This document shows, one piece after another, positions 9,661-10,251 of a stretch of DNA of 64,000 nt; positions within the stretch are counted from its first letter, which is position 1; each line of letters begins with the position of its first letter. Origin of the DNA: Escherichia coli. GTDB taxonomy: Bacteria; Pseudomonadota; Gammaproteobacteria; Enterobacterales; Enterobacteriaceae. The notes below the pieces were generated by a model that saw only the letters and a program-made list of their open reading frames with translations, was not told where the DNA came from and searched no databases. The stretch lies in the NCBI RefSeq assembly GCF_030013205.1, contig NZ_CP122648.1, one strand, 5' to 3'. A program made the translations under genes and the position numbers.

Positions 9661-9978
9661 TAAATGGGTGGAACCTGTAAAGACTTCTACTCATTTATAT
9701 TCTTTGTCGCCTCTAAAAAACCTCCATTTTGCCCATCCTGGACTAATCATTATCATTTTCTACAAATTCTGTGGCGTTAATTTTTCGTTGGAGTGAAAAT
9801 TATTACGTCGGAGTTTGGTGGATTTTAGTCGGTATAGAATTACTTTAAATATTTGGCTTTTCAATCAATGAATTAAGTGCTCTTTAACATAATGGATGTG
9901 TTGTTTGTGTGTTTCTGTTAAGTTGGTAGATTGTGACTGACTTAAAAAATCAATAATTAATAATAGGTTATGTTTAGT
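9661..9978 (+). promoter_or_regulatory. AT-rich CRISPR leader
   Basis: AT-rich, non-coding, directly upstream of the first repeat; shares the motif gttggtagattgt with the leader of the cas2-proximal array. Confidence 0.6.
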
Positions 9979-10251
9979 GAGTTCCCCGCGCCAGCGGGGA
10001 TAAACCGCCCGGTTGATTTATTACCCTGGCTAGCATGGGGAGTTCCCCGCGCCAGCGGGGATAAACCGGCCACTAACCAGCCAGACTCACAATAAATGCA
10101 GAGTTCCCCGCGCCAGCGGGGATAAACCGGTGCACACGTTGTATTTGTGCTGCCTATGCCAGAGTTCCCCGCGCCAGCGGGGATAAACCGCGTTTAGCTC
10201 CGCAATGCTGGATATCACTGATGAGTTCCCCGCGTCAGCGGGGATAAACCA
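9979..10251 (+). CRISPR. type I-E CRISPR array, 5 repeats and 4 spacers
   Basis: 29-bp repeats GAGTTCCCCGCGCCAGCGGGGATAAACCG at 9979, 10040, 10101, 10162, 10223; 32-bp spacers at 10008..10039, 10069..10100, 10130..10161, 10191..10222; last repeat degenerate (gcgTcag, ends acca). Confidence 0.95.

What the first reader, a model, noticed from the sequence alone, without database searches (positions are those of the whole stretch)
9661..10251. Second type I-E array (4 spacers) with a conserved leader between queE and ygcE
A second array lies about 25 kb from the cas genes and uses the GAG-type repeat variant. Its AT-rich leader shares a motif with the cas-proximal leader, so it is probably still competent for Cas1–Cas2 spacer integration. 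The terminal repeats of both arrays carry the same C-to-T change (gcgTcag).
Basis: seen in the sequence. Interest (0 to 1): 0.4.

Follow-up and report, generated by a model that had tools for sequence, protein, structure and literature searches.

The report
Known second E. coli CRISPR array
This is the well-known second CRISPR array of E. coli (CRISPR-II, also called CRISPR2.3), already annotated in this genome; it looks able to gain spacers, but this lineage has only lost them recently.

Summary
Five 29-nt repeats (GAGTTCCCCGCGCCAGCGGGGATAAACCG) and four 32-nt spacers lie at 9979-10251. They follow a 338-bp AT-rich leader (31% GC) between queE and ygcE. The window is the E. coli ETEC4079 chromosome, where RefSeq already annotates the array as CRISPR. 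It is the classic CRISPR-II/CRISPR2.3 locus, the same locus used in BL21-AI adaptation experiments.

The motif shared by the two leaders is the 12-mer GTTGGTAGATTG at -57..-46. It is identical and in the same register in both leaders, and it falls on the published Cas1-Cas2 anchoring element. An IHF-like site lies at -31..-19 (AATCAATAATTAA), and both leaders end in TAGT. A complete cas operon is present, and the Cas1 catalytic residues are intact.

Spacer 2 matches the phage P1/P7 coi gene 32/32, with an ATG PAM. Strains with the same leader allele share the trailer spacer and differ at the leader end, so the array did grow by polarised acquisition. The closest swine ETEC relatives differ only by internal deletions. 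The window has lost two spacers and gained none.

The C-to-T change lies in the hairpin loop and is a common repeat variant. Verdict: correct, ordinary and already known.

The parts
9641..9978 (+). Leader2.3: the AT-rich (31% GC) intergenic region from the queE stop to the first repeat. The last ~111 bp are homologous to the cas-proximal leader.
9922..9933 (+). Upstream Cas1-Cas2 contact element (CBS2, -57..-46), GTTGGTAGATTG. The integrase anchoring site GTAG is at 9926-9929 (-53..-50).
   Evidence: positions defined in PMC5224486; identical in BL21/K-12 leader2.3 and at 35896-35907
9948..9960 (+). IHF-like site AATCAATAATTAA (-31..-19), one mismatch to WATCAANNNNTTR
   Evidence: the published IHF site spans -9..-35 (PMC10011333)
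9975..9978 (+). Leader-repeat junction bases -4..-1 (TAGT). The same four bases occur in the resident cas-proximal leader; BL21/K-12 have TAGA.
   Evidence: Cas1-Cas2 site at -1..-4 per PMC10011333
9979..10251 (+). CRISPR2.3 array: 5 repeats of 29 nt (GAG type) and 4 spacers of 32 nt
   Evidence: annotated as CRISPR in RefSeq
10008..10039 (+). Spacer 1 (leader-proximal). Found only in arrays of swine-associated E. coli genomes; no phage or plasmid match.
10069..10100 (+). Spacer 2: 32/32 match to phage P1/P7 coi (C1 repressor inactivator). The protospacer is preceded by ATG.
10130..10161 (+). Spacer 3, no match outside CRISPR arrays
10191..10222 (+). Spacer 4: the trailer 'anchor' spacer, shared (exactly or with 1 SNP) by otherwise different arrays
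10223..10251 (+). Terminal repeat GAGTTCCCCGCGTCAGCGGGGATAAACCA. C13T lies in the hairpin tetraloop, and the last base is A instead of G.
10252..10705 (.). AT-rich (27% GC) 454-bp stretch separating CRISPR2.3 from CRISPR2.2
   Evidence: the 0.5-kb separation is described in PMC3903273
10706..10844 (+). CRISPR2.2 relic: three degenerate repeats (10706, 10755, 10816) and one full 32-nt spacer (10784-10815) that is identical in all nine strains aligned, including K-12, BL21 and O157
27295..35856 (+). Complete type I-E cas operon (cas3, casA-E, cas1e, cas2e) of the E1/'EO' variant. It supplies the Cas1-Cas2 integrase and Cascade for both arrays.
35857..35952 (+). Cas-proximal leader (leader-A/L1 type). 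The same GTTGGTAGATTG lies at 35896-35907 and the leader ends TAGT.
35953..36347 (+). CRISPR2.1 array: 7 GTG-type repeats and 6 spacers. The terminal repeat carries the same C13T.

Best explanation
The feature is the CRISPR-II locus of E. coli, here strain ETEC4079. It consists of the CRISPR2.3 array with its own leader (leader2.3) and, 454 bp downstream, the fossil CRISPR2.2 array.

Proposed mechanism, by analogy with the K-12/BL21 system:
1. The array has no cas genes of its own. It is served in trans by the complete E1-variant I-E operon 17-25 kb away.
2. IHF binds the leader at about -31..-19 and bends it.
3. The bend brings the upstream element GTTGGTAGATTG (-57..-46) next to the leader-repeat junction (TAGT|GAG).
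4. Cas1-Cas2 docks there, integrates a new 33-nt spacer and duplicates the first repeat.
5. The array is transcribed from the leader. Cas6e cuts each repeat hairpin (a 7-bp stem with a GCCA loop) to give crRNAs for Cascade and Cas3.

Shown here:
- the anatomy of the array and leader;
- the identity of the leader motifs with the experimentally validated leader;
- an intact integrase;
- a P1-targeting spacer with a proper PAM in the proper orientation;
- a population pattern of past polarised acquisition.

Inferred, not shown:
- that integration and crRNA production still occur in this strain.

In this swine ETEC lineage the recent history is loss only, consistent with the H-NS-silenced state of E. 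coli I-E systems.
For: **Identity**
- The window is 100% identical to NZ_CP122643.1, where the array is annotated between queE and ygcE.
- The literature defines CRISPR-II exactly this way, with CRISPR2.2 and 2.3 separated by 0.5 kb (PMC3903273).
- The BL21 array used in adaptation studies (NC_012947 1002908-1003730) lies between queE and ygcE.

**Leader**
- Relative to BL21/K-12 leader2.3, it differs within -69..-1 only at -67, -65, -62, -60, -39, -26 and -1. None of these falls in CBS2/IAS.
- Only the proximal 40-60 bp of leader2.3 are required for expansion (Yosef et al., as cited in PMC3737337).
- The CBS2 12-mer is identical and in register in the strain's own leader-A.
- The IHF-like site at -31..-19 has 1 mismatch.

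**Enzymes**
- Cas1 aligns without gaps to K-12 Cas1 over residues 1-304 (E 7e-176). E141, H208 and D221 are present.
- Cas2 is identical to K-12 Cas2 at 79 of 94 positions.

**Past function**
- Spacer 2 matches P1 coi 32/32 with an ATG on its 5' side. ATG fits the AWG acquisition motif of the non-K-12 cas variant (PMC3737337).
- Eight other strains have an identical proximal leader (the 70 bp printed). All keep trailer spacer S4/S13, and across them four unrelated sets of leader-proximal spacers occur.

**Repeat hairpin**
- Each repeat folds at -15.1 kcal/mol, and C13T leaves the energy unchanged.
Against: - No experiment here shows integration or transcription.
- The leader-proximal spacer S1 occurs in the 19 swine-associated genomes that carry it. 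In the four such arrays read in full it sits next to the leader.
- Differences among these relatives are internal deletions. K_EC180 has S1-S6-S7-S2-S3-S4, the window has S1-S2-S3-S4, ETEC4068 lacks S3, and CFSAN018748 keeps S1-S6-S4. There is therefore no sign of acquisition since the clade's ancestor.
- E. coli I-E is H-NS-silenced under normal conditions (PMC10011333).
- The leader is a minority allele, at least 99% identical in only 326 of 5426 genomes, and it has not itself been tested.
- Its -1 base lies in the Cas1-Cas2 contact region and differs from the tested BL21 leader.
- The promoter scan was uninformative: 5 sites found against 4.5 expected.
Confidence: 0.85

Rival explanations
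1. Decaying relic. The array and leader are structurally intact but no longer gain spacers in nature. They persist by inertia, or for crRNA expression only, and are being eroded by repeat-repeat recombination.
For: - Among the 30 genomes sharing spacer 1, 3 or 4, all matches lie at the CRISPR locus, and the leader-proximal spacer S1 is never preceded by a newer one.
- The window array is an internal-deletion derivative of a six-spacer array.
- Only 1 of the 10 spacers in the two arrays matches any phage, and none of spacers 1, 3 and 4 matches a true plasmid. The six CRISPR2.1 spacers were not searched against plasmids.
- H-NS silencing is documented (PMC10011333).
- The neighbouring CRISPR2.2 shows that arrays at this locus can fossilise.
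Against: - All known integration motifs, the first repeat and the integrase are intact.
- Strains with the identical proximal leader carry four unrelated sets of leader-proximal spacers over a shared trailer spacer. This exact leader allele has therefore supported acquisitions.
- The same locus is the working acceptor array in BL21-AI experiments.
Confidence: 0.3
2. Mismatched leader. Leader2.3 differs so much from the resident leader-A that this strain's E1 Cas1-Cas2 uses it poorly or mis-orients spacers, so the array is effectively orphaned.
For: - The two leaders differ at 52 of the last 100 positions in an ungapped comparison.
- Leader-A has no good IHF consensus at the corresponding place; its best sites have 2 mismatches.
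- A non-cognate leader/Cas1-Cas2 combination gave anomalous insertions in 7 of 18 cases (PMC3737337).
Against: - The functionally critical 12-mer and the -4..-1 junction bases are identical in the two leaders.
- Spacer 2 is correctly oriented, with its PAM side (ATG) toward the leader.
- E1-type cas2 and leader-A occur with both leader2.3 alleles: O157 and PK8568 have the major allele, while the window and strain 7/2 have the minor one.
- The literature states that spacers are properly inserted at both leader types (PMC3737337) and that the distal leader works with a non-matching cas variant (PMC3903273).
Confidence: 0.08
3. Not a CRISPR array: a chance or other repeat family, such as REP/BIME elements.
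For: None.
Against: - 13 matches to the repeat core against 0 in shuffles.
- Exact 61-bp periodicity with unique 32-nt spacers.
- A hairpin-forming repeat identical to the cas-adjacent array.
- Annotated as CRISPR in RefSeq.
Confidence: 0

Closest known systems
E. coli K-12/BL21 CRISPR-II locus (CRISPR2.3 array with leader2.3, plus CRISPR2.2), between ygcE and queE/ygcF
   Same: - Same flanking genes and orientation.
- Same 29-nt repeat family and 61-bp period.
- Same leader, 94% identical over the proximal 100 bp, with identical CBS2/IAS.
- Same 454-bp AT-rich gap.
- The CRISPR2.2 spacer is identical and its first repeat differs at one base.
   Different: - All spacers differ.
- The repeats begin GAG here and GTG in K-12/BL21, except their terminal repeat.
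- This is a minority leader allele, about 90% identical over 338 bp, with -1 T instead of A and -26 A instead of T. The latter improves the IHF match.
- The terminal repeat carries C13T.
- The resident cas operon is the E1 variant, not the K-12 E2 variant, whereas BL21 has none.
Cas-proximal CRISPR2.1 array and leader-A (L1) of cas-E1 ('EO', O157-type) E. coli
   Same: - Same repeat apart from position 2.
- Same upstream 12-mer GTTGGTAGATTG at -57..-46.
- Same TAGT junction.
- Same C13T in the terminal repeat.
   Different: - The leader is only 96 bp long, abuts cas2 and has an 11-bp deletion relative to leader2.3.
- The -45..-5 segment, including the IHF region, is divergent.
- GTG repeats.
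Type I-E leader architecture defined in K-12: an IHF site, an upstream Cas1-Cas2 anchoring site and the junction (Nunez 2016, Yoganand 2017, Wright 2017, as summarised in PMC5224486 and PMC10011333)
   Same: All three elements are present at the published distances.
   Different: The IAS tetranucleotide is GTAG here and in BL21. At the same positions (-53..-50) the K-12 CRISPR2.1 leader, the type-T leader cloned in pCSIR-T and used to define the IAS, reads GTGG. This particular allele has not been tested.

Membership tests
Type I-E CRISPR array | Regularly spaced 29-nt (28+1) direct repeats with unique spacers of about 32 nt | tested here: met
   5 repeats with a 61-bp period and 4 unique 32-nt spacers; 0 matches expected by chance
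Type I-E CRISPR array | The repeat forms the Cas6e-type hairpin (7-bp stem, 4-nt loop) followed by an 8-nt handle, ATAAACCG | tested here: met
   Predicted MFE -15.1 kcal/mol, pairing positions 5-11 with 16-22. The terminal-repeat C13T lies in the loop and the energy is unchanged.
Type I-E CRISPR array | A cognate I-E cas operon in the genome | tested here: met
   cas3 through cas2e at 27295-35856, none flagged as a pseudogene. Cas1 and Cas2 match the K-12 structures at E 7e-176 and 2e-48.
E. coli CRISPR-II locus (CRISPR2.2 / CRISPR2.3) | Located between ygcE and ygcF (queE) | tested here: met
   queE at 8969-9640 (+) and ygcE at 10890-12368 (-) flank the array; definition in PMC3903273
E. coli CRISPR-II locus (CRISPR2.2 / CRISPR2.3) | A second short array (CRISPR2.2) about 0.5 kb from CRISPR2.3 | tested here: met
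   Degenerate repeats at 10706-10844, 454 bp after the terminal repeat. The spacer is identical in K-12, BL21 and O157.
E. coli CRISPR-II locus (CRISPR2.2 / CRISPR2.3) | Leader2.3 sequence conserved regardless of cas variant | tested here: met
   The leader is found in 4574 of 5426 complete genomes and is 94% identical to K-12/BL21 over the proximal 100 bp
Integration-competent I-E leader (K-12/BL21 model) | Upstream Cas1-Cas2 anchoring element at -46..-57 (IAS at -50..-53) | tested here: met
   GTTGGTAGATTG at 9922-9933, identical to BL21/K-12 leader2.3 and to the resident leader-A
Integration-competent I-E leader (K-12/BL21 model) | IHF binding site within -9..-35 | tested here: met
   AATCAATAATTAA at -31..-19, 1 mismatch to the consensus; BL21 has 2 at the same place. 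This is a sequence match only. Such matches are common in AT-rich DNA: 4 sites with at most 1 mismatch occur in the 454-bp inter-array region.
Integration-competent I-E leader (K-12/BL21 model) | Cas1-Cas2 contact bases at -1..-4 next to a canonical first repeat | tested here: inconclusive
   TAGT|GAGTTCC here against TAGA|GTGTTCC in the tested BL21 leader. TAGT is identical to the resident leader-A junction in this strain, O157 and PK8568. The effect of the -1 base has not been measured.
Integration-competent I-E leader (K-12/BL21 model) | New spacers actually added at the leader end | not testable with these tools
   Indirect evidence only. Strains with the same proximal leader differ at the leader end and share the trailer spacer, but there has been no gain within the swine ETEC clade.
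Integration-competent I-E leader (K-12/BL21 model) | Catalytically intact Cas1 and Cas2 | tested here: met
   Cas1 is 307 aa with E141, H208, D218 and D221 present. Cas2 is 97 aa and identical to K-12 Cas2 at 79 of 94 positions.
cas-E1 ('EO') variant system of E. coli | Leader-A plus CRISPR-A (GTG, ...AACAC) repeats at CRISPR2.1, hok/sok next to cas3, and an AWG PAM | tested here: met
   - GTG repeats at 35953-36347.
- The leader has 5 differences in 96 bp from O157 leader-A; the 193-bp cas2-leader stretch is 95.3% identical.
- A Hok/Gef CDS lies at 26948-27100.
- The spacer 2 protospacer has ATG.
- Criteria from PMC3737337 and PMC3903273.

The most novel reading that the evidence does not exclude
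The minority leader2.3 allele in this strain is at least 99% identical in only about 6% of complete E. coli genomes. It has -1 T, matching the resident leader-A junction, and -26 A, which improves the IHF consensus. It might be a functionally distinct leader, for example one better matched to E1-type Cas1-Cas2. That would alter how new spacers are divided between the two arrays. The mosaic structure around it points to repeated recombination with breakpoints at or inside the array: queE is 93.75% identical to K-12, the distal leader 89%, and different strains combine the same leader with different flanks.
Probability: 0.1. Interest if true: 0.25.

Novelty: already known. Interest (0 to 1): 0.08.

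Why it matters
It matters little beyond correct annotation.

- The locus, its leader and the integration motifs have been characterised in E. coli over more than a decade, and the array is annotated in the source genome.
- For typing, the spacer content (S1-S2-S3-S4, a deletion derivative of the six-spacer array of swine ETEC relatives) can serve as a lineage marker.
- The perfect P1 coi spacer with a functional-type PAM predicts immunity to P1-like phage-plasmids if the system is de-repressed.
- The check confirms that sequence reading alone picked out the true Cas1-Cas2 anchoring motif.

Tried and rejected
1. **Spacers 1, 3 and 4.** Searches against phages, plasmids and E. coli genomes gave no protospacer. 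The only matches were CRISPR arrays, plus one 4.9-Mb chromosome filed as a plasmid. The six CRISPR2.1 spacers and the CRISPR2.2 spacer gave no phage match at E up to 1.
2. **cas2 remnant upstream of leader2.3.** The MAFFT alignment suggested one. A local alignment supports homology only from the cas2 stop codon onward (E 4e-5). The part reaching into the cas2 coding sequence has E 0.27 and was rejected as not significant.
3. **Relic leader for CRISPR2.2.** A 58-nt stretch (10394-10450) is 67% identical to leader2.3 -61..-4, E 0.001. It is AT-rich, lies 250 bp from the first 2.2 repeat, and is probably compositional. Left open.
4. **Co-variation of leader2.3 base -1 with the cas variant.** Rejected. 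O157 has an E1-type leader-A ending TAGT, and its leader2.3 ends TAGA. PK8568 likewise combines leader-A with the major leader2.3 allele (H101). K-12 has A in both leaders.
5. **'GAG repeat' as a signature of the distal array.** Rejected. K-12 and BL21 CRISPR2.3 use GTG, and K-12 CRISPR2.1 uses GAG.
6. **The shared C13T as a meaningful link between the two terminal repeats.**
   - GCGTCAG also occurs internally in NRZ14408, followed by an extra spacer and a CCA-ending terminal repeat.
   - It also occurs in CRISPR2.2 repeats.
   - It is the consensus printed in PMC3737337.
   - The window's terminal repeat is best read as a recombinant of a penultimate T-variant repeat and the CCA terminal repeat.
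7. **Promoter and terminator scan.** No enrichment over shuffles.
8. **Rfam scan of 8700-11200.** Nothing near threshold.

Full report
**What is there**

The region 9979-10251 holds five copies of the 29-nt repeat GAGTTCCCCGCGCCAGCGGGGATAAACCG, spaced exactly 61 bp apart, and four unique 32-nt spacers. The 27-nt repeat core matches 13 times in the window at up to 3 mismatches, against none in 100 shuffles. Five matches are in this array and seven in a second array at 35953-36347. One is in a degenerate repeat at 10757.

The last repeat reads GAGTTCCCCGCGTCAGCGGGGATAAACCA. The last repeat of the other array reads GTGTTCCCCGCGTCAGCGGGGATAAACCG. The shared C13-to-T change is therefore real. The stretch between the queE stop (9640) and the first repeat is 31% GC, against 52% for the window.

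**Where it comes from**

The 2.5-kb stretch tested (window 9000-11500) is 100% identical to the chromosome of E. coli ETEC4079 (NZ_CP122643.1, a pig faecal isolate), and the annotation coordinates fit the whole window.

- RefSeq annotates a CRISPR at exactly 9979-10251.
- queE lies at 8969-9640 (+) and ygcE at 10890-12368 (-).
- A complete type I-E operon (cas3, casA, casB, cas7e, cas5e, cas6e, cas1e, cas2e) lies at 27295-35856.
- A second CRISPR lies at 35953-36347, next to iap.

The '25 kb' in the finding is the array-to-array distance (25,974 bp). cas3 starts 17.0 kb from the array end and cas1 24.4 kb.

**What it is called**

The literature names this locus CRISPR-II. It lies between ygcE and ygcF (queE) and contains CRISPR2.3 with its leader2.3. 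It usually also contains a short CRISPR2.2 array 0.5 kb away (PMC3903273; PMC3737337).

Three degenerate repeats sit at 10706, 10755 and 10816, 454 bp after the terminal repeat. Their one full spacer (10784-10815) is identical in all nine strains aligned, including K-12, BL21 and O157. That marks CRISPR2.2 as a fossil.

**Which cas variant the strain carries**

The system is the non-K-12 variant, called E1 or 'EO'. Four features support this.

- The cas-adjacent array uses GTG ('CRISPR-A') repeats.
- Its 96-bp leader differs from O157 leader-A at 5 positions. The 193-bp cas2-leader stretch is 95.3% identical to O157:H7, and similar sequences occur in 2681 of 5426 complete genomes.
- A hok/gef gene sits between cysH and cas3, as described for non-E2 arrangements.
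- Cas1 aligns gap-free with K-12 Cas1 (E 7e-176) and keeps E141, H208 and D221. Cas2 is identical to K-12 Cas2 at 79 of 94 positions.

**The leader**

The BL21 array used in the classic acquisition experiments (NC_012947 1002908-1003730, cited in PMC5224486) lies between queE and ygcE. The experimentally characterised leader is therefore a leader2.3, which PMC3737337 also states. The window's leader can thus be compared with it base by base.

- Within -69..-1 it differs from BL21/K-12 only at -67, -65, -62, -60, -39, -26 and -1.
- The published elements are an IHF site within -9..-35, Cas1-Cas2 contacts at -1..-4, and an upstream element at about -50..-55 (PMC10011333). The upstream element was mapped as CBS2 at -46..-57, with the integrase anchoring site at -50..-53 (PMC5224486).
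- In the window, -57..-46 reads GTTGGTAGATTG (9922-9933). It is identical to BL21 and K-12 leader2.3.
- It is also identical, at the same distance, in the strain's own cas-proximal leader (35896-35907).
- The IHF-like site AATCAATAATTAA at -31..-19 has one mismatch to WATCAANNNNTTR. The BL21 site at the same place has two, and the -26 difference explains the improvement.
- The junction bases are TAGT in both leaders of this strain and TAGA in both K-12 leaders. This is not a rule. O157 and PK8568 combine leader-A (TAGT) with the major leader2.3 allele; O157's ends TAGA.

Overall the two leaders are homologous over about 111 bp, from the cas2 stop codon to the junction (63% identity, E 4e-5).

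**Spacers**

Spacer 2 (10069-10100) matches the coi gene of phages P1 and P7 and many P1-like plasmids at 32/32. The protospacer is preceded by ATG. That fits the AWG (CWT) acquisition motif reported for the non-K-12 variant, and its orientation is correct, with the PAM side toward the leader.

Spacers 1, 3 and 4 match nothing outside CRISPR arrays in the phage, plasmid or E. coli genome collections. The six spacers of the other array match no phage.

**History of the array**

Eight other strains have an identical proximal leader (the 70 bp printed). All keep the trailer spacer S4 or its 1-SNP variant. Across them four unrelated sets of leader-proximal spacers occur. This is the classic signature of polarised acquisition, so this leader allele has worked in the past.

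Within the swine ETEC clade the picture is different.

- K_EC180 and 13 other genomes in which spacers 1, 3 and 4 span the same 337 bp carry S1-S6-S7-S2-S3-S4 (spacer order read in K_EC180).
- The window has S1-S2-S3-S4.
- ETEC4068 lacks S3.
- CFSAN018748 keeps S1-S6-S4.

The newest spacer, S1, is common to all of them. All variation is internal deletion. The window's array is therefore a two-spacer deletion derivative, with no gain since the clade's ancestor. This fits the H-NS-silenced state of E. coli I-E.

**The terminal repeat**

C13 lies in the tetraloop of the repeat hairpin, where positions 5-11 pair with 16-22. The predicted energy stays at -15.1 kcal/mol with T.

GCGTCAG is not peculiar to terminal repeats.

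- In NRZ14408 it is an internal repeat following S4, and is followed by one more spacer and a ...CCA terminal repeat.
- It occurs in CRISPR2.2 repeats.
- It is the consensus printed in PMC3737337.

The simplest reading is that the window's terminal repeat is a recombinant. It took T13 from the penultimate repeat and CCA from the old terminal repeat, and the last spacer was lost. The T form is an old, widespread repeat variant.

**GAG versus GTG**

GAG is not a property of the distal locus. K-12 and BL21 CRISPR2.3 arrays use GTG apart from the terminal repeat, and K-12 CRISPR2.1 uses GAG.

**Allele and mosaicism (side observation)**

The window's 338-bp leader is at least 99% identical in 326 genomes, while about 4188 genomes carry a form only 90-95% identical. 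Against K-12, other parts of the locus are also unusually divergent.

| Segment | Identity to K-12 |
|---|---|
| queE | 93.75% |
| Distal leader | 89% |
| Inter-array region | 91.6% |

NRZ14408 has the same leader but a different queE (92.6%). Ec-2939 has the same leader but a different inter-array region (93.6%). The locus is therefore mosaic, with breakpoints at or in the array.

**Verdict**

The feature is the long-known, already annotated CRISPR-II/CRISPR2.3 array. It is structurally competent for IHF-guided Cas1-Cas2 integration and for crRNA production in trans. It was historically active and has recently only lost spacers. Novelty: already known. Interest is low.

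Noticed in passing
Its first degenerate repeat (10706-10734, ATATTCCTTGTAACAACAGGGATAAACCG) still folds into the 7-bp hairpin, through two double changes (C9-G18 to U-A and C11-G16 to U-A). Its full spacer is identical in K-12, BL21 and O157.
   Followed up: partly
window 10394-10450: A 58-nt stretch in the AT-rich gap between the arrays is 67% identical to leader2.3 -61..-4 (E 0.001 in a tiny search space). It could be a relic leader or just AT-rich composition.
   Followed up: partly
window 9789-9821 vs 35779-35816: Weak similarity between the region upstream of leader2.3 and the 3' end of cas2 (E 0.27). This hints that the distal leader arose by duplication of a cas2-leader unit, but it is not significant.
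   Followed up: partly
window 3606-3700: relA is followed directly by mazG, with no mazE-mazF toxin-antitoxin genes between them. In the 12 E. coli genomes sampled across the ranking, three lack mazEF in the same way, while most, including K-12, carry it.
   Followed up: partly
window 7803-8830: ygcG is annotated as a pseudogene (internal stop) and the small yqcG-like gene as frameshifted in this strain.
   Followed up: no
window 26948-27100: A Hok/Gef family toxin gene lies between cysH and cas3, as described for E. coli strains that do not carry the K-12 (E2) cas variant.
   Followed up: no
window 8969-10705: Divergence from K-12 is unusually high for E. coli: queE 93.75%, distal leader 89%, inter-array region 91.6%. 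Other strains mix the same leader with different flanks, so the locus is mosaic, with recombination breakpoints at or in the array.
   Followed up: partly
L008 (O169:H41) 1081-1658: This strain has the major leader allele but shares the older spacers S7-S2-S3-S13 with the window lineage. It adds five newer spacers whose repeats carry a loop variant (GCGCGAG). This is an example of a repeat variant spreading from the leader end.
   Followed up: no
window 19382-19407 and 25885-25910: Two copies of a REP-like element (GGnCTTGTAnGCCTGATAAGACGCGT), 92% identical, lie in intergenic positions (family D4).
   Followed up: no
window 47608-50000: Downstream of rpoS lie a MarR-family regulator and hydroxyarylic acid decarboxylase subunits B and C. 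From my own knowledge, this is the variable mutS-rpoS segment known to differ among E. coli lineages.
   Followed up: no
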